DNA from: Escherichia phage EK5
Sequence record: PQ805429.1
Reading direction: 5' to 3' (one strand)
DNA length: 64,000 bases
Part shown: positions 35,892 through 46,303 of the stretch, piece by piece
Numbering within the stretch: the stretch's first letter is position 1
Layout: every line of letters starts with the position of its first letter
Notes under the pieces: model-generated
Seen by the model: the letters and a program-made list of their open reading frames with translations, nothing else
Database searches by the model: none
What the model was told of the DNA's origin: nothing
Made by a program: the position numbers and the translations under genes

Positions 35892-35919
35892 TTGACAGCC
35901 TTTTCCTTTATTATATAGT
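35892..35919 (+). promoter_or_regulatory. Sigma70-type early promoter
   Basis: TTGACA, 16-nt spacer, TATAGT; about 45 nt upstream of the first rightward gene at 35964. Confidence 0.55.
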
Positions 35920-37840: not shown

Positions 37841-37915
37841 GCTTAATCTTTCTCCTGTATTGTGCCGTAGTCATGCCTATGGTCATAATTTATCTGATTC
37901 TCTAATCCTTCCTGT

Positions 37916-37945
37916 AAGCCTCCTAGTGAGGCTTTTCTCTTTTAT
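37916..37945 (+). terminator. Rho-independent terminator
   Basis: AAGCCTC-CTAGT-GAGGCTT hairpin followed by TTCTCTTTT. Confidence 0.6.
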
Positions 37946-38099
37946 GAGGTGATTGTATGCCTTACTCCCTTTTAGCTCGTTGTGATGCGTTTTAGGCCGC
38001 TAAATATCGCTTTACAAGCCGTTTTCTATGATGTATCGCGTGCGCCTGCTCTTTTACCTTCCTATAGTGAAAAAGTTTAAAATAATTTGCTTTACCCTA

Positions 38100-38127
38100 T
38101 TGCAACCTCATCTGATTAGCGTATACT
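38100..38127 (+). promoter_or_regulatory. Sigma70-type promoter in ORF-poor region
   Basis: TTGCAA, 16-nt spacer, TATACT. Confidence 0.45.
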
Positions 38128-38748
38128 TCATTTCATCGGGTACGATGTAAAACATACAAGGCAAGAAATTGCCCCGCTCTTTAAAAATATGATTTGTCTT
38201 ACGGGTGGCGGCGACGTCATTACTATAAGGCGCTCAGTTAATCGGTAGAATTGATTCCTGATTCATACGTGACGCAGGCGGACAATAAGCAATATCAATA
38301 AGCCTTATTTGTTCGATACTTTCAAAAGATTAATGCTTGAAAGCGCACTAGATTCCCTGAAAGACAAATCAGACTTATCATCTTGCCCTTTCGCATAGAT
38401 TCACGCGAGATAAGGGAAAGGAATTAAAAGAAGATGATAAAAAGAGTTGCAAACGTGGTTAAAGTAGTCCATACTAACCACAAGTTAGCAAAACATCGCT
38501 AACTAGTTCCCAAATCAACGTATCGCGGGAAAGGTGGCACATAGTGCAGCGATTAGTTCAGGTGTAGGCGGCCTGTTAATGAATCAGTAAGCCTTCAATG
38601 TGACAGTGATTAGCAGACACTTTAAAAGGCTAAACGCTCTTTAACAATATGAGTCATAAGTTAAGCCTCACCGCTTAATCTTCAATCAAATAAAGCTGAT
38701 TGATATATCCTCCCAATAGCGGGAACGACGAAAAAGATTAAAAAGCGG

Positions 38749-38777
38749 TTGACAGCGAAAACAACATGATTCATAAT
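38749..38777 (+). promoter_or_regulatory. Strong sigma70-type promoter with A-rich upstream element
   Basis: TTGACA, 17-nt spacer, CATAAT, preceded by AAAAAGATTAAAAAG; no ORF with SD within about 900 nt downstream. Confidence 0.55.
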
Positions 38778-39700
38778 GAGCACTCACTAAGCAAATCATC
38801 GCTTCAGTGAAAAGCGTAACAACGGCTAACAGTTGCATAGTGTGAGAAAGCACACTGATAGATTTACCGCTCTTTAATAATTTAAACATTCTCCTATATC
38901 GGTTGAATATGCTTGATGATAATAACCATCGGAAAGCATACCAGATAAAACGGCGTAAAACTCCCTAAATTATCAGGGTAAACAGTTTTACATTCCCTTA
39001 CTGGAAACGTCACCATTGATAAACGGATTCATTGAGTACACGCAAAGACTTGAGCTAATCGCCCACGGTTAAGGGTAGCGGCGGTCATTGCTAACACGGT
39101 GCTACAGTGAAAGAAGTTAATCAGGGTAGGCAATCCCGACGAATTAACGCTCAATTGAGAGCGGCGGGGAGTGGTTAAAAAGTGGCAAATTGCTATTTAA
39201 CAATAAGGTTTAGTGTGAACGTTTACAATGTGAACGGCTTGAGATTCATCTTATGATGAAAGTACATAGTCGGTTTATGTAGTAAACTTGCCGAAAGATA
39301 TAAAACGTCGGAACATTAGACGGTCAATGACTCTTTCGCAATAGTATCCCGTAGTGGGCGATGACTAGCGATTGAGAGTTGATATAAAAGGATAGGCGAG
39401 AGCGAAAGCAAAGTAAACGATATTGCCGACGGTTACAATAACGTAACTAATTAGAGTCGGACGCACTGCCTTATTGTGATGATTGATCATCGCTATCAGG
39501 TCGGCTTCGTTTATAGCGACTAATTAAAGATACCAGATGAAACATCACGGATAAGGGGGCGGCAAGGTTAACTCCTGATAAGACCGCCCCGCTTACCTAT
39601 AACTACTTAACAACGAGTGGTTATAGTTAAGTTAATAGTGACTTAAACAAGCTCATAGAGAGCGGGGCAATAGCGCCCTTACAATTGAAAGGTGAATATT

Positions 39701-41870: not shown

Positions 41871-42087
41871 TAGGAATATAGCCCCCTCTTTTAGTACTAT
41901 GACGCTCTTTCTGTAGCGTCGTGCCCTCTCCCCATTTGAAGCTTCCGCATAGCCGCCTTTGAGCGGCTTTTTGCGTTGCTGTAAGTGCATTTGCGAGTGT
42001 ATTTATAGCAACGGTCATGTGTTGCTTTCAGGTTTGCCCCGGCTACGGCTGGGGCTTTTTTATGTCTACTGTATAGGAATCTATGAA

Positions 42088-42768
42088 ATGAAAGCAATTG
42101 TATTATCCTCAATCCTAGCTCTGTCCATAATGGCATCGCCTGTTTTTGCTAAAAGTGGAAACAATGGCAATGGCAATGGAGGTTGTGGTGTAGGTCAATC
42201 TACCAATGGTTGCGGTATCGGAGATTGGTTTAAAGGTGAAAAAGGTGATCAGGGAGAGAAAGGCGACACTGGCGCTAATGGCATTGATGGTAAAGATGGC
42301 ATTGATGGAGAACAAGGCGCTCAAGGTGAAAAAGGTGATTCTGGTGCAGATGGTAAGAAAGGCGAAACTGGCCTAACTGGTGCAGCAGGTTTGAATGGCG
42401 TTGACGGATTAAATGGCAAAAACGGTAAAGATGCAGATATGTCTGCCGTTAATGCTAACGCCAAATCCATCAAAGCTCTGGAACAATCCACCAATAAACG
42501 TTTTGCTTCTTTGCAAAAACAAGTAGACCGTAACCGTGATCATGCCTCTGCTGGTATTTCTGGCGTGGCTGCAATGGCTAACATCCCGCAAGTAAGTCAA
42601 GGATCTGCTTTCTCTGTTGGTGCTGGGGTAGGTGCTTACGATGGTGAATCTGCTCTTGCTATTGGTGTTAGTGCTCGTTTCAATGAAAACTTAGTAACTA
42701 AAGCATCAGTGGCAATGACTTCAGAGAGTGACGCTGTTCTGGGCGCTGGTGTAAGTTACGAGTGGTAA
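42088..42768 (+). CDS. Secreted collagen-repeat protein with YadA-like C-terminal anchor
   Basis: Signal peptide MKAIVLSSILALSIMASPVFA; Gly-X-Y repeats; C-terminus ISGVAAMANIP ... VGAGVGAYDGESALAIGVSARF ... GAGVSYEW; real start is internal to the listed 41959 ORF. Confidence 0.6.
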   Translation: MKAIVLSSILALSIMASPVFAKSGNNGNGNGGCGVGQSTNGCGIGDWFKGEKGDQGEKGDTGANGIDGKDGIDGEQGAQGEKGDSGADGKKGETGLTGAAGLNGVDGLNGKNGKDADMSAVNANAKSIKALEQSTNKRFASLQKQVDRNRDHASAGISGVAAMANIPQVSQGSAFSVGAGVGAYDGESALAIGVSARFNENLVTKASVAMTSESDAVLGAGVSYEW

Positions 42769-42785
42769 GATAGTGCCTCTCCCGA

Positions 42786-42812
42786 AAGGGAGGGGTGTTT
42801 CTATAAGCATCT
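42786..42812 (+). terminator. Rho-independent terminator
   Basis: CCTCTCCC-GAAA-GGGAGGGG hairpin followed by TGTTTCT. Confidence 0.55.
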
Positions 42813-42878
42813 TTTCGAGGGTGTTTATTGAAACAACAAAACAGGAGGTAGCAAGTTCTGATAACAACGGCACAGCTA

Positions 42879-43268
42879 ATGTTGACATTGACTATTTATT
42901 ATGAGGCAGGGAATCAGCCAACCGCATGTAAGGCTTTAGTTGCGGATACCGTGATAAATAGAATGGCCCAACGAAAACTGACCGCTGAACAGGTGATAAG
43001 ACAGAAGAACCAGTTTGAGTGGATTCCGGTACTATTAAAACAGGAGAAACCTTATAAACGTTATGTAAAGCTGATTCGTGATAAAAATCCGATGACTAAG
43101 CAAGCCATTGGAGAAAGCGAGCGACTTGCTAAACGTGCCCTTAAGAAGAATTATGTTCCGCTGTACAGTGGGACTTACTTTCAGAGTAAGAGCGAAGGGG
43201 TGCCAAAATGGTATGCCAATCCTATGTATTGTGGTGATTTAGTGTTCGATAATAGCTCTAGGGAATAA
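42879..43268 (+). CDS. SleB/CwlJ-like cell-wall hydrolase (Hydrolase_2-like)
   Basis: TIYYEAGNQPTACKALVADTVINRM ... QFEWIP resembles the SleB-family core. Confidence 0.45.
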   Translation: MLTLTIYYEAGNQPTACKALVADTVINRMAQRKLTAEQVIRQKNQFEWIPVLLKQEKPYKRYVKLIRDKNPMTKQAIGESERLAKRALKKNYVPLYSGTYFQSKSEGVPKWYANPMYCGDLVFDNSSRE

Positions 43269-43467
43269 TCACTAGTGCCAGATTTGACAAACTAAATTCC
43301 TTTATAAACCAACCACTTAGTAAATTTATCGAAAAAGATGGTAGTATTCTGGGACTATGGGTAATGCTCTGTATATAGACCCTTTGAAAATTTCTTAGAA
43401 AATAAGTTTACTAAATATAACTTACTTAAATAATATTACTTTTAATCTCTGATAAAGGGTAAATAAT

Positions 43468-43764
43468 ATGACTTTAGAAGTATATAAATTCCTTTTTGTA
43501 AGCTGTTTAACTATCAGCGTTCTAGGATTTATTGTTCTCAGAAACAAAGCAGCAAGCTGGGAAAGAATGTATAAATCCCTAGTTCGAGTGGATGAGATGT
43601 ATAACGAGAAGGTTAAAGTAACACTCAACGATCTTATTATGCAAGTTGAAGACAGAAACAAACGTCTTCAGAACCTCAATCATGAAGTGTTGCGACTTGC
43701 TCGTGCTAATGAAGACTTACGAGTGGCTATTGCTAAGCAGCAGGAGATTAACAGTGAAAGTTAA
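43468..43764 (+). CDS. Membrane-anchored coiled-coil protein
   Basis: N-terminal TM FLFVSCLTISVLGFIVL followed by coiled coil. Confidence 0.45.
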   Translation: MTLEVYKFLFVSCLTISVLGFIVLRNKAASWERMYKSLVRVDEMYNEKVKVTLNDLIMQVEDRNKRLQNLNHEVLRLARANEDLRVAIAKQQEINSES

Positions 43765-46227: not shown

Positions 46228-46303
46228 GCACCCTTAGCTCAATGGACAGAGCAGCGACCTTCTAAGTCGTTGGTTACAGGTTCGAGTCCTGTAGGGTGCA
46301 CCA
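46228..46303 (+). tRNA. tRNA-Arg (anticodon UCU, reads AGA), CCA encoded
   Basis: Hand-folded cloverleaf: acceptor GCACCCT/AGGGTGC, D-stem GCTC/GAGC, anticodon stem GCGAC/GTCGT with loop CTTCTAA, T-arm ACAGG-TTCGAGT-CCTGT, discriminator A then CCA. Confidence 0.9.

What the first reader, a model, noticed from the sequence alone, without database searches (positions are those of the whole stretch)
42088..42768. Phage-encoded collagen-repeat protein with YadA-like anchor
Seen in sequence: signal peptide, 30-plus Gly-X-Y triplets, then a C-terminal segment ending GAGVSYEW that resembles the beta-barrel anchor of trimeric autotransporter adhesins. It has its own SD and is bracketed by terminators. 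Inference: an outer-membrane surface protein expressed in the infected cell, possibly for superinfection exclusion, receptor masking or aggregation; unusual in an apparently lytic phage.
Basis: partly seen in the sequence, partly recalled or inferred. Interest (0 to 1): 0.6.

Follow-up and report, generated by a model that had tools for sequence, protein, structure and literature searches.

The report
Phage collagen-stalk trimeric autotransporter gene
A lytic E. coli phage of the phiEco32 group carries a small accessory gene for an outer-membrane-anchored, collagen-like surface fibre; the gene has been annotated since 2008, but nobody has tested what it does for the phage.

Summary
The ORF at 42088-42768 (+) is real. 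It encodes a 226-aa protein with four parts: a Sec-type signal peptide, a 28-aa cap with two cysteines, 22 uninterrupted Gly-X-Y triplets (not 30-plus), and a coiled-coil helix followed by a YadA-type four-strand anchor. The anchor is well supported: Pfam PF03895 E=2e-19, sequence matches to the solved YadA and Hia anchors, and an AlphaFold model whose top PDB fold hits are the Hia, AtaA and YadA anchors.

The window is a Kuravirus, 98.5-99.9% identical to phiEco32 and phiEc_1. The gene is phi32_119, annotated "agglutinating adhesin" in 2008. A 2013 paper noted it as a yadA homologue in virulent phages.

What I add:
- It is an optional cassette in the sigma70-transcribed early arm, present in 15 of 99 related records. 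In others it is cleanly absent or replaced by an HTH gene.
- The stalk varies from 12 to 37 triplets between near-identical phages, in 18-nt units.
- The coding sequence is under purifying selection.
- Relatives sit among early or replication genes in at least four other virulent phage lineages.

The protein's identity is secure (about 0.9). Its function is untested. My best guess is a steric shield on the infected cell that excludes phage adsorption (0.35), ahead of cell aggregation (0.25). Interest is moderate to low.

The parts
41951..41973 (+). First upstream terminator-like hairpin (AGCCGC-loop-GCGGCT) plus T-run, downstream of the phi32_120 homologue
   Evidence: -15.4 kcal/mol, z = -3.67.
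42036..42061 (+). Second upstream terminator-like hairpin: 8-bp G+C-rich stem, UACG tetraloop and T6. It is conserved in phages with and without the cassette.
   Evidence: (-18.6 kcal/mol, z = -3.78).
42065..42837 (+). Variable cassette: leader, adhesin gene and downstream hairpin. It is exactly absent in phage ES17. In SGF2-type phages its interior (42089-42746) is replaced by a 99-aa HTH_37 gene.
42067..42075 (+). TACTGTATA, one mismatch from the phiEco32 gp36 middle/late promoter element tAATGTAtA (TATTGTATA in SGF2). Its function is unproven. The expected transcription start would fall after the Shine-Dalgarno sequence.
   Evidence: 16 matches in the window against 20 expected by chance. 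Consensus from PMC8948821. Alignment.
42075..42078 (+). Shine-Dalgarno AGGA, 9 nt upstream of the ATG
   Evidence: Read directly from the sequence.
42088..42768 (+). CDS of 226 aa plus stop: a collagen-stalk trimeric autotransporter, orthologue of phiEco32 phi32_119
42088..42150 (+). Signal peptide, aa 1-21 (MKAIVLSSILALSIMASPVFA), signal peptidase I type with no lipobox
   Evidence: An equivalent N-terminus is present in 37 of 38 relatives.
42151..42234 (+). Distal cap, aa 22-49: Gly/Asn-rich, with a cysteine pair (C33, C42). An alternative cap (HSDKC...C) occurs in other alleles.
   Evidence: Exactly two Cys lie before the collagen in 30 of 38 relatives.
42235..42432 (+). Collagen-like stalk: 22 uninterrupted Gly-X-Y triplets (aa 50-115), no proline, 22 of 66 residues charged, about 19 nm long if it forms a triple helix
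42278..42308 (+). GIDGKD 18-nt repeat unit. Its copy number accounts for the stalk-length differences within the KSGNNG-cap alleles that carry it (22-34 triplets). KM01 (12) has lost this segment, and the 37-triplet EcP-vB allele also differs in cap and proximal collagen.
42433..42585 (+). Conserved GKDADM collagen-to-helix junction and a long helix (model aa 119-164) forming the coiled-coil neck and pore-traversing segment. It includes the invariant AGI(A/S)GVAAMANIPQV.
   Evidence: pLDDT 74-87.
42586..42765 (+). YadA-type membrane anchor: four beta-strands per chain (aa 175-184, 187-197, 202-211, 216-224), with C-terminal G-x-x-Y-x-W ending in Trp
42775..42796 (+). Downstream hairpin: 9-bp stem, GAAA loop and a weak U-tract. 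It is retained after the HTH gene in SGF2.
   Evidence: -18.4 kcal/mol, z = -3.70.

Best explanation
WHAT IT IS (confidence about 0.9). The gene encodes a minimal type Vc (trimeric) autotransporter carried as an optional early-arm cassette of a virulent Kuravirus.

Inferred biogenesis, from established knowledge of trimeric autotransporters:
1. Host RNA polymerase transcribes the gene soon after infection as part of the sigma70-driven early arm, reading through leaky hairpins.
2. The 21-aa signal peptide sends the chain through Sec.
3. Three C-terminal four-strand segments are assembled by BAM into one 12-strand outer-membrane barrel.
4. The three helices thread the pore.
5. The passenger emerges on the cell surface as a coiled-coil neck, then a proline-free, highly charged collagen triple helix (about 19 nm here, 10-32 nm in sister alleles). 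A small cap at the tip probably closes it with disulfides between its two cysteines per chain.

WHAT IT DOES (inference, about 0.35; the confidence value given for this explanation refers to this functional claim). There is no head domain, only a length-tunable rod. I therefore propose that it forms a brush on the infected cell, and later on its outer-membrane debris, that keeps other virions from reaching the membrane surface. That would amount to superinfection exclusion and protection of progeny from being wasted on debris, functionally like T5 Llp but steric rather than receptor-specific. Stalk length would be tuned to the host's surface-glycan layer or to tail length.
For: Identity:
- Pfam YadA_anchor E=2e-19 over the full profile, and Collagen E=3e-9.
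- Sequence matches to the solved YadA and Hia anchors.
- The AF2 model shows a helix plus four strands with pLDDT 71-87. Its top five PDB fold hits are the Hia, AtaA and YadA anchors, with target-normalised TM-score 0.65-0.84.
- The signal peptide, cysteine pair, GKDADM junction and C-terminal Trp are conserved across 38 relatives.

Not a virion part:
- It lies among early genes. SU10 CDS 69-125 are early and driven by sigma70 promoters (PMC4281155), and gene order places it there.
- Infectious relatives lack it, including ES17 and SU10, whose virion structure is solved (PMC11990801).
- Homologues in N4-like, RF1-like and P778-like phages sit among RNA polymerase, DNA polymerase, dUTPase and nrd genes.

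Functional, not junk:
- 11 synonymous-only versus 4 amino-acid-changing variable codons in the last 135 codons across 9 alleles.
- All repeat-number changes are in frame.

Accessory, conflict-type locus:
- The slot is empty, adhesin or HTH in different phages.
- In N4-like phages TerB, or TerC plus TelA, lie nearby. From my own knowledge, ter operons are linked to phage and colicin resistance.

Shield idea:
- The passenger is only a rod plus a 28-aa cap.
- Kuraviruses must bring their short tail fibres and nozzle to the cell surface after first binding O-antigen (PMC11990801).
Against: - No experiment exists on localisation, trimerisation or any phenotype.
- No promoter was found for the cassette, and two terminator-like hairpins sit just upstream. 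Expression level and timing are therefore inferred only from position.
- The collagen part has no proline, so triple-helix stability is unproven.
- Only about 15 of 99 related phage records keep the gene, so any benefit is conditional.
- Wild hosts already carry O-antigen, which itself shields outer-membrane receptors, so an extra steric brush may add little.
- The default phenotype of short trimeric autotransporters is adhesion or autoagglutination, which favours the rival explanation.
- There is no PADLOC hit and no homology to any known exclusion protein.
Confidence: 0.35

Rival explanations
1. Aggregation or adhesion factor. The fibre makes the infected cell sticky, binding neighbouring cells or surfaces either rod-to-rod or through the variable cap. 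Progeny are then released next to fresh hosts.
For: - Family precedent, from my own knowledge: YadA, Eib, UpaG, EhaG and AtaA mediate autoagglutination and biofilm formation.
- The distal tips are mosaic and variable across the family: two caps in Kuravirus, a roughly 60-aa tip in N4-like phages, and coiled-coil tips elsewhere. That pattern is typical of binding modules.
- Length polymorphism could serve to project the tip beyond O-antigen.
- The collagen is periodic and highly charged, with 22 of 66 residues charged.
Against: - There is no recognisable head or lectin domain, and the cap is only 28 aa.
- Homotypic rod-rod binding would only join infected cells, which gives no obvious benefit.
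- I know of no precedent for a virulent phage inducing aggregation this way, and no literature was found.
Confidence: 0.25
2. Virion component. This reading follows the automated labels 'tail protein', 'tail fibers protein' and 'recognition of host receptor'. The collagen repeat would be a tail-fibre shaft and the C-terminus a trimerisation module.
For: - PHROG 26246 is labelled 'tail protein' (E=6e-102), and many collagen-repeat PHROGs are tail fibres.
- RefSeq and several GenBank records use tail labels.
Against: - The Sec signal peptide is conserved in 37 of 38 relatives, and the C-terminus is a bona fide outer-membrane beta-barrel anchor. Both are incompatible with cytoplasmic virion assembly.
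- The gene lies in the early arm, not the structural module.
- It is absent from infectious relatives, including SU10, whose virion structure is solved.
- Homologues in other phages are never in tail operons (PMC3728262).
Confidence: 0.03
3. Factor directed at the animal host or environment. It would provide serum or complement resistance, anti-phagocytosis or tissue adherence for the infected bacterium, as with the prophage Eib proteins or the Glaesserella VtaA proteins.
For: - Collagen-bearing VtaA autotransporters are virulence-associated (PMC6211672).
- Moreno Switt et al. listed the phage gene as a putative virulence gene.
- NCBIfam gives partial hits to Scl and Lcl collagen-like adhesins.
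Against: - The phage is strictly virulent, with a short infection cycle, and the cell dies, so there is little time or benefit.
- There is no lysogeny and no evidence of transfer to hosts. No DNA match was found in 5,426 complete E. coli genomes.
- No known integrin- or complement-binding motif was identified.
Confidence: 0.05
4. Envelope-modifying helper for the phage's own cycle, for example modulating outer-membrane integrity or lysis timing together with the adjacent SleB-like hydrolase and the transmembrane/coiled-coil protein.
For: The next genes are a Hydrolase_2 (SleB-like) protein at 42879-43268 and a 98-aa protein with an N-terminal hydrophobic segment and a coiled coil at 43468-43764.
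Against: - Those neighbours are present in all relatives whether or not the adhesin is, so they do not depend on it.
- Holin and lysozyme are conserved late genes elsewhere in the genome (PMC4281155).
- The gene is dispensable in most Kuraviruses.
Confidence: 0.05

Closest known systems
Trimeric autotransporter adhesins (type Vc secretion): YadA, Hia, AtaA
   Same: - N-terminal Sec signal.
- C-terminal helix plus a four-strand anchor matching PF03895 over its full length.
- Sequence and fold matches to the solved anchors 2lme, 2gr7/2gr8/3emo and 9vnj.
- The closest anchors, at 55-66% identity, are chromosomal autotransporters of Enterobacterales such as Leclercia, Enterobacter and Cedecea.
   Different: - Very small: 226 aa against 450 to over 3000.
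- No YadA head, neck or stalk repeats, and no extended signal peptide region.
- The passenger is a collagen triple-helix repeat with a tiny Cys-pair cap.
- It is encoded by a virulent phage in its early region.
Glaesserella (Haemophilus) parasuis VtaA, and chromosomal collagen-stalk autotransporters such as that of Ewingella americana
   Same: - Collagen triple-helix repeats placed directly before the YadA anchor (PMC6211672).
- The Ewingella protein (L018 5236-7020) even shares the GKDADM junction and the AGIAGVAAMANIPQV helix.
   Different: - The bacterial proteins are much larger: Ewingella 594 aa, and VtaA carries YadA head and stalk domains and an extended signal peptide.
- They are chromosomal and, for VtaA, virulence-associated.
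- VtaA collagen is Pro-rich (for example AGPTGPQGPAGPTG), whereas the phage stalk has no proline.
phiEco32 phi32_119 'agglutinating adhesin' and the yadA homologues of FSL SP-058/SP-076 (PHROG 26246)
   Same: - The same gene: 98% nucleotide identity and the same 22 triplets in phiEco32.
- The N4-like Salmonella phage versions share about 55-60% identity over the collagen end, junction, helix and anchor.
- The same observation, that the gene is not near tail genes in virulent phages, was published in 2013.
   Different: - The phiEco32 and Bas90 records start the CDS at an upstream TTG that runs through the terminators, which hides the signal peptide.
- The N4-like versions have a larger, roughly 60-aa tip and 26-57 triplets.
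Phage-encoded outer-membrane exclusion lipoproteins (T5 Llp, Cor of phi80/N15). Functional analogy only, from my own knowledge.
   Same: Made by the phage during infection, targeted to the outer membrane, dispensable, and proposed to stop further adsorption and loss of progeny on debris.
   Different: No sequence or fold relationship. Llp and Cor are small lipoproteins that block one receptor (FhuA). Here the proposed action is steric and has not been demonstrated.
Prophage-encoded Eib immunoglobulin-binding proteins of E. coli (from my own knowledge) and lambda morons Bor and Lom
   Same: Phage-borne outer-membrane proteins carried as accessory cassettes. Eib proteins are trimeric autotransporters.
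   Different: Those are expressed from prophages in lysogens and benefit the living host, for example through serum resistance. This gene sits in a strictly virulent phage and has a collagen passenger rather than a coiled-coil one. No match was found in E. coli genomes.
Bacterial and phage collagen-like proteins (Scl1/Scl2, BclA, Lcl, phage tail-fibre collagen repeats)
   Same: An uninterrupted (Gly-X-Y)n repeat rich in charged residues and without hydroxyproline. There are weak NCBIfam and PDB hits to Scl, Lcl and BclA. Repeat number is polymorphic.
   Different: - Anchoring is by an outer-membrane beta-barrel, not LPXTG, exosporium or virion attachment.
- The stalk has no proline at all.
- The trimerisation and registration module is C-terminal (coiled coil plus barrel).

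Membership tests
Trimeric autotransporter (type Vc), YadA-anchor family | C-terminal YadA-like membrane anchor domain (PF03895) above the curated threshold | tested here: met
   69.7 bits against a cut-off of 22.7, E=2.1e-19, covering profile positions 1-60 of 60. phmmer matches the YadA anchor 2lme at E=5.9e-8 and the Hia anchors.
Trimeric autotransporter (type Vc), YadA-anchor family | Per-chain topology of one pore-traversing helix followed by four beta-strands | tested here: met
   The AF2 model has a helix at 119-164 and strands at 175-184, 187-197, 202-211 and 216-224, with pLDDT 71-87. Foldseek top five hits are 3emo, 2gr7, 2gr8, 9vnj and 2lme, with rmsd 1.8-3.0 A.
Trimeric autotransporter (type Vc), YadA-anchor family | N-terminal Sec signal peptide | tested here: met
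   The n/h/c regions and V-x-A cleavage motif were found by inspection. An equivalent N-terminus is conserved in 37 of 38 relatives. No dedicated predictor was available.
Trimeric autotransporter (type Vc), YadA-anchor family | C-terminal beta-signal ending in an aromatic residue for BAM recognition | tested here: met
   The protein ends ...GAGVSYEW (G-x-x-Y-x-W). The terminal Trp is present in 37 of 38 relatives.
Trimeric autotransporter (type Vc), YadA-anchor family | Obligate homotrimer forming a 12-strand barrel, localised to the outer membrane with the passenger on the surface | not testable with these tools
   Needs multimer modelling or, decisively, fractionation, heat-modifiable SDS-PAGE, and protease shaving or immuno-EM.
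Trimeric autotransporter (type Vc), YadA-anchor family | Passenger built from canonical head, neck or stalk modules (YadA_head, YadA_stalk and similar) | tested here: not met
   Pfam finds only Collagen and YadA_anchor. This is not obligatory for the family, since VtaA also carries collagen repeats, but it makes this an atypical headless member.
Collagen-like triple-helix proteins | Long uninterrupted (Gly-X-Y)n and a Pfam Collagen hit above threshold | tested here: met
   22 uninterrupted triplets, aa 50-115. PF01391 gives 36.9 bits against a cut-off of 27.2.
Collagen-like triple-helix proteins | Actual formation of a stable triple helix | not testable with these tools
   The stalk has no proline, 22 of 66 residues charged, 3 KGD and 1 KGE. 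The monomer AF2 model has low confidence there. CD spectroscopy, melting or collagenase tests are needed.
Phage moron / autonomous accessory cassette | Present or absent between otherwise collinear, near-identical phage genomes | tested here: met
   Window 42065-42837 is exactly missing in ES17. It is replaced by an HTH_37 gene in SGF2, 172-1, SR02 and pEC-N1203. 15 of 99 records carry it.
Phage moron / autonomous accessory cassette | Own promoter and own terminator | tested here: inconclusive
   A downstream hairpin is present but has a weak U-tract. There is no sigma70-like promoter. The only candidate is a one-mismatch gp36-type element that is no more frequent than chance.
Virion tail or tail-fibre protein (PHROG/RefSeq label) | Encoded in the structural/late module and assembled in the cytoplasm into virions | tested here: not met
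   It lies in the early arm, has a signal peptide and an outer-membrane anchor, and is absent from infectious relatives, including structurally solved SU10. Virion proteomics for phiEco32 could not be read.
Known superinfection-exclusion or defence proteins | Homology to a described exclusion or defence family | tested here: not met
   No PADLOC family matches at E<=0.01. Pfam, NCBIfam and PHROG give only autotransporter and collagen hits. This lowers 'is an X', not 'works like an X'.

The most novel reading that the evidence does not exclude
Virulent phages of at least five unrelated lineages (Kuravirus, N4-like Ithacavirus, RF1-like 45-kb myoviruses, P778-like phages, and several jumbo and T4-like phages) share a dedicated family of headless collagen-stalk trimeric autotransporters. 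They would deploy these early on the infected cell as a length-tunable surface brush. This would be a new, steric class of phage-encoded exclusion or anti-adsorption system (or an aggregation system). Stalk length would evolve rapidly by 18-nt repeat slippage to match host glycan thickness or competitor tail length.
Probability: 0.3. Interest if true: 0.65.

Novelty: already known. Interest (0 to 1): 0.35.

Why it matters
If the fibre really is displayed on infected cells, it would show that strictly lytic phages remodel the outer surface of their host during a 20-30 minute infection, using the host's own Sec and BAM machinery. That bears on superinfection exclusion, on competition between phages in therapeutic cocktails (many Kuraviruses are therapy candidates), and on how progeny avoid being wasted on debris.

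It is also a compact natural scaffold: 226 aa that join a proline-free collagen helix to a coiled coil and a beta-barrel. That makes it useful for surface display or for studying collagen folding.

A practical point follows for databases. The current labels 'tail protein', 'tail fibers protein' and 'recognition of host receptor' are almost certainly wrong. They could mislead host-range prediction, and 'adhesin / virulence factor' flags could wrongly disqualify phages from therapy.

As it stands, however, the gene itself has been annotated and remarked on for years. Nothing here demonstrates function.

Tried and rejected
1. Lysis-cassette idea. I asked whether the outer-membrane protein works as a spanin-like partner of the adjacent SleB-like hydrolase and transmembrane/coiled-coil protein. 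Rejected, because those neighbours persist in phages lacking the adhesin and holin and lysozyme are late genes elsewhere.
2. Own promoter. The sigma70 scan found none between the terminators and the ATG. The gp36-type element TACTGTATA is a one-mismatch hit no more frequent than chance, and it is badly placed relative to the Shine-Dalgarno sequence. Left as unproven.
3. Recent capture from the E. coli host or a prophage. There is no DNA match in 5,426 complete E. coli genomes. Plasmid hits cover only the anchor, at 54% identity.
4. Foreign base composition. GC is only slightly above the neighbours and is explained by Gly codons, so this is uninformative.
5. Primary phiEco32 papers. Savalia 2008 (PMC2587145) and Pavlova 2012 (PMC3275717), needed for virion proteomics and the expression class of gene 119, are not held. 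Class was inferred from position through the SU10 paper instead.
6. Literature on function. Four searches on autotransporters, YadA, phage, exclusion and collagen found no experimental study.
7. Defence-system homology. PADLOC returned nothing.
8. AF2 monomer model. The N-terminal 115 residues have low confidence (pLDDT below 50), as expected for an obligate trimer, so no conclusion can be drawn about the cap or the collagen.
Full report
**Observation.** The ORF is real and the reported coordinates are correct. It runs from ATG 42088 to the stop at 42766-42768 on the + strand and encodes 226 aa.
- An AGGA lies 9 nt upstream of the ATG.
- The N-terminus MKAIVLSSILALSIMASPVFA|K has the n/h/c layout and V-x-A motif of a signal peptidase I substrate, and no lipobox.
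- The Gly-X-Y claim needs correcting. This allele has 22 uninterrupted triplets, aa 50-115, not 30-plus.
- The C-terminal resemblance to a YadA anchor is a strong homology, not an impression. Pfam PF03895 scores 69.7 bits against a cut-off of 22.7 (E=2e-19) over all 60 profile positions. PF01391 Collagen scores 36.9 bits against 27.2.
- phmmer against PDB sequences finds the solved YadA anchor 2lme (E=6e-8) and the Hia anchors.
- An AlphaFold2 model built on a 38-sequence alignment gives a long helix (119-164) followed by four strands, with pLDDT 71-87. Its five best PDB fold matches are the membrane anchors of Hia, AtaA and YadA, with target-normalised TM-score 0.65-0.84.
- Terminator-like hairpins do bracket the gene. 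Two lie upstream, at 41951-41968 and 42036-42055, each with a T-run. One lies downstream (about 42775-42796) with a poor U-tract. Fold energies are -15 to -19 kcal/mol, with z about -3.7.

**Where the window comes from.** The region is 98.5-99.9% identical to Kuravirus phages phiEc_1, Bas90 and phiEco32.
- The gene is phi32_119, annotated 'agglutinating adhesin' in the 2008 phiEco32 record. It is labelled 'YadA-like protein' in EcP-vB and 'tail protein' in RefSeq and Bas90.
- Moreno Switt et al. 2013 explicitly noted yadA homologues in phiEco32 and in the virulent N4-like Salmonella phages FSL SP-058 and SP-076. They also noted that these genes are not near tail genes (PMC3728262).
- The existence and family assignment of this gene are therefore already known.
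- I found no experimental work on its function.

**Anatomy.** After the signal peptide comes a 28-aa Gly/Asn-rich cap with two cysteines (C33, C42).
- The collagen-like stretch that follows has no proline and 22 of 66 residues charged. It would be about 19 nm long as a triple helix.
- An invariant GKDADM junction leads into the helix, which contains the invariant AGI(A/S)GVAAMANIPQV, and then into the four-strand anchor ending G-x-x-Y-x-W.
- Across 38 diverse relatives, 37 have a signal-peptide-like N-terminus, 36 have GKDADM and 37 end in Trp. Thirty have exactly two cysteines between the signal peptide and the collagen, and the rest have a coiled-coil tip instead. Triplet number ranges from 11 to 57.
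- Conserved cysteines and a signal peptide fit an exported protein, not a cytoplasmically assembled one.

**Genomic context and variation.** The gene lies in the rightward (window + strand) early arm.
- In SU10 and phiEco32, CDS 69-125 are early and driven by sigma70 promoters, three of them in the spacer upstream of the phi32_124 homologue (PMC4281155; PMC8948821). The adhesin is the sixth gene downstream of that spacer.
- The window has strong sigma70-like sites at 35892 and 38749.
- No sigma70-like promoter lies between the upstream hairpins and the ATG.
- A TACTGTATA at 42067-42075 is one mismatch from the gp36 element tAATGTAtA. Such hits are no more frequent than chance, and the predicted transcription start would fall after the Shine-Dalgarno sequence. 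Expression by read-through of early transcripts is therefore the default inference.
- The gene is an optional cassette. ES17 lacks exactly window 42065-42837, with the upstream terminator abutting the hydrolase leader.
- SGF2, 172-1, SR02 and pEC-N1203 carry a 99-aa HTH_37 protein in place of 42089-42746. They keep the same leader and, tellingly, a decayed remnant of the adhesin's last codons plus its hairpin. The HTH gene therefore replaced an ancestral adhesin.
- Fifteen of 99 matching records carry the adhesin.
- Among carriers, stalk length is 12 triplets in KM01, 22 in the window and phiEco32, 28 in phiEc_1, 30 in Ec3-ASingh, 34 in Bas90 and 37 in EcP-vB.
- From 22 to 34 triplets the alleles differ only in the copy number of an 18-nt GIDGKD unit. 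KM01 has lost that segment. EcP-vB also carries a different cap and a partly different proximal collagen segment.
- All length differences are in frame. The repeat breaks several assemblies.
- In the last 135 codons, 11 variable codons are synonymous-only and 4 change an amino acid, conservatively. This indicates purifying selection.

**Distribution.** tblastn finds relatives in 65 phage records: Kuravirus, N4-like Salmonella phages, jumbo phages (GAP32, fHe-Yen9, Munch), T4-like SKML-39, and Aeromonas, Pantoea and Erwinia phages.
- Where I looked, the gene sits among early or replication genes. In FSL SP-058 it lies between RNA polymerase subunit genes and dUTPase. In RF1-like 45-kb phages it follows DNA polymerase I. 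In Yersinia phage P778 it lies between nrdD and nrdG.
- In the big protein collection, the best 120 hits are almost all Collagen plus YadA_anchor proteins on phage-sized contigs.
- Chromosomal relatives exist in Enterobacterales. Some share only the neck and anchor (Leclercia, 66% identity). A few are larger collagen-stalk autotransporters with the same GKDADM junction, such as that of Ewingella americana in a non-phage context.
- No DNA-level match was found in 5,426 complete E. coli genomes.

**Mechanism.** The domain identity, the topology of the anchor, the conservation, the early-arm position and the accessory status are shown.
- Inferred from established autotransporter biology: Sec export, BAM-dependent assembly of a 12-strand trimeric barrel, and surface display of a coiled-coil neck plus collagen rod capped by a probable disulfide knot.
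- The biological role is speculative. The passenger is a headless rod of tunable length and the locus behaves like a conflict-type accessory slot. Kuraviruses must bring their short fibres and nozzle to the membrane surface after binding O-antigen (PMC11990801).
- On that basis I favour a steric brush that blocks irreversible adsorption on infected cells and debris (0.35).
- Aggregation or adhesion, the default phenotype of short autotransporters, is nearly as likely (0.25).
- A virion role is very unlikely (0.03), given the signal peptide, the barrel anchor, the early location and the absence of the gene from infectious relatives, including structurally solved SU10.
- A lysis role is disfavoured. 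The neighbouring hydrolase and transmembrane protein are kept when the adhesin is missing, and holin and lysozyme are late genes.

**Comparison and novelty.** The protein meets every testable defining feature of the YadA-anchor trimeric autotransporter family. It lacks the canonical head and stalk modules.
- Collagen repeats next to the anchor are already known from Glaesserella parasuis VtaA (PMC6211672).
- Functionally it may resemble T5 Llp or Cor (my own knowledge), but there is no homology and no PADLOC hit.
- The gene is essentially identical to an annotated phiEco32 gene that has been discussed in print, so I rate the finding as already known.
- The additions here are the cassette boundaries and replacement history, the repeat-number polymorphism, the family-wide conserved features, and the argument that the 'tail protein' labels are wrong.
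- Interest is moderate to low (0.35). It is a reasonable lead for a first functional study of a recurrent accessory gene in virulent phages, but not a surprise to specialists.

Noticed in passing
L004 3186-3485 (Shigella phage SGF2), equivalent to window 42089-42746: In SGF2, 172-1, SR02 and pEC-N1203-2Af.1 the adhesin body is replaced by a 99-aa HTH_37/XRE-type protein that uses the same leader. A decayed remnant of the adhesin's last codons (TGGTGTAAGTTACaAaTaGTAA) and its hairpin remain downstream. The same HTH gene is about 74% identical at the DNA level to a gene in T4-like Enterobacter phages.
   Followed up: partly
L001 4573-5370 (phiEco32 phi32_119) and L005 3060-3977 (Bas90_0117): These database records start the CDS at an upstream TTG, giving 265 and 305 aa, so that it runs through both terminator hairpins. 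This hides the signal peptide. The RefSeq and PHROG labels 'tail protein', 'tail fibers protein' and 'recognition of host receptor' for this family look wrong.
   Followed up: yes
Records MT129653 (MN03), MW929182/MW929183 (FS2B), MT127620 (PGN6866) and PQ818763 (ShigP1): Assemblies end, split or contain an N-run inside the GIDGKD collagen repeat. Stalk length is therefore unreliable in short-read assemblies, and some annotated 'adhesins' (for example the 125-aa one of MN03) are truncated artefacts.
   Followed up: partly
window 42879-43268 (+): A 129-aa SleB-like cell-wall hydrolase (Pfam Hydrolase_2, E=2e-7) lies in the early arm, with no obvious signal peptide and a poor Shine-Dalgarno sequence. 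It is conserved in all relatives and is separate from the late holin/lysozyme pair. A strong AGGAGG at 42846-42851 lies 27 nt upstream of its ATG with no start codon nearby.
   Followed up: partly
window 43468-43764 (+): A 98-aa protein with an N-terminal hydrophobic segment and a coiled-coil tail has no Pfam or NCBIfam hit. It is labelled 'DNA helicase' in several records, which seems unfounded. It is preceded by an AT-rich trough (GC 0.28 at 43250-43550) and a promoter-like site at 43407-43434.
   Followed up: no
window 37841-39691: A roughly 1.85-kb stretch has no ORF of at least 100 aa. It contains strong sigma70-like sites (for example TTGACA-17-CATAAT at 38749) and several hairpins. It corresponds to the spacer that holds three early promoters in phiEco32 and SU10. 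A further near-consensus promoter lies at 35892, at the divergent junction.
   Followed up: partly
window 46228-46303 (+): A tRNA-Arg (anticodon TCT) gene, as annotated in phiEco32.
   Followed up: no
L006 6454-6903 (FSL SP-058 TerB); L094 7849-8832 and 11896-12999 (TerC, TelA): In N4-like phages the collagen-YadA gene lies within a few kb of tellurite-resistance-family genes (TerB, or TerC plus TelA). This is an envelope-stress and phage/colicin-resistance-associated gene set that may belong to the same accessory theme.
   Followed up: no
L018 5236-7020 (Ewingella americana ATCC 33852): A chromosomal 594-aa autotransporter has a long GxDGxD collagen stalk, the same GKDADM junction and the same anchor helix, in a non-phage neighbourhood. 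It is a plausible bacterial source lineage for the phage genes. Similar partial matches occur in Yersinia and Rahnella.
   Followed up: partly
Plasmids AP022232, AP022423 and NZ_OQ821049: Small mobilizable plasmids (9.5-12 kb) and a 56-kb plasmid of Enterobacter, Klebsiella and E. coli encode YadA-anchor proteins about 54% identical to the neck and anchor. In the E. coli record the gene sits next to an HNH endonuclease.
   Followed up: no
window 42067-42075 and L004 equivalent: A TAnTGTATA element (TACTGTATA here, TATTGTATA in SGF2) lies between the terminator and the Shine-Dalgarno sequence. It resembles the gp36 middle/late promoter consensus tAATGTAtA. It is conserved with the cassette leader but is not statistically distinguishable from chance.
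   Followed up: partly
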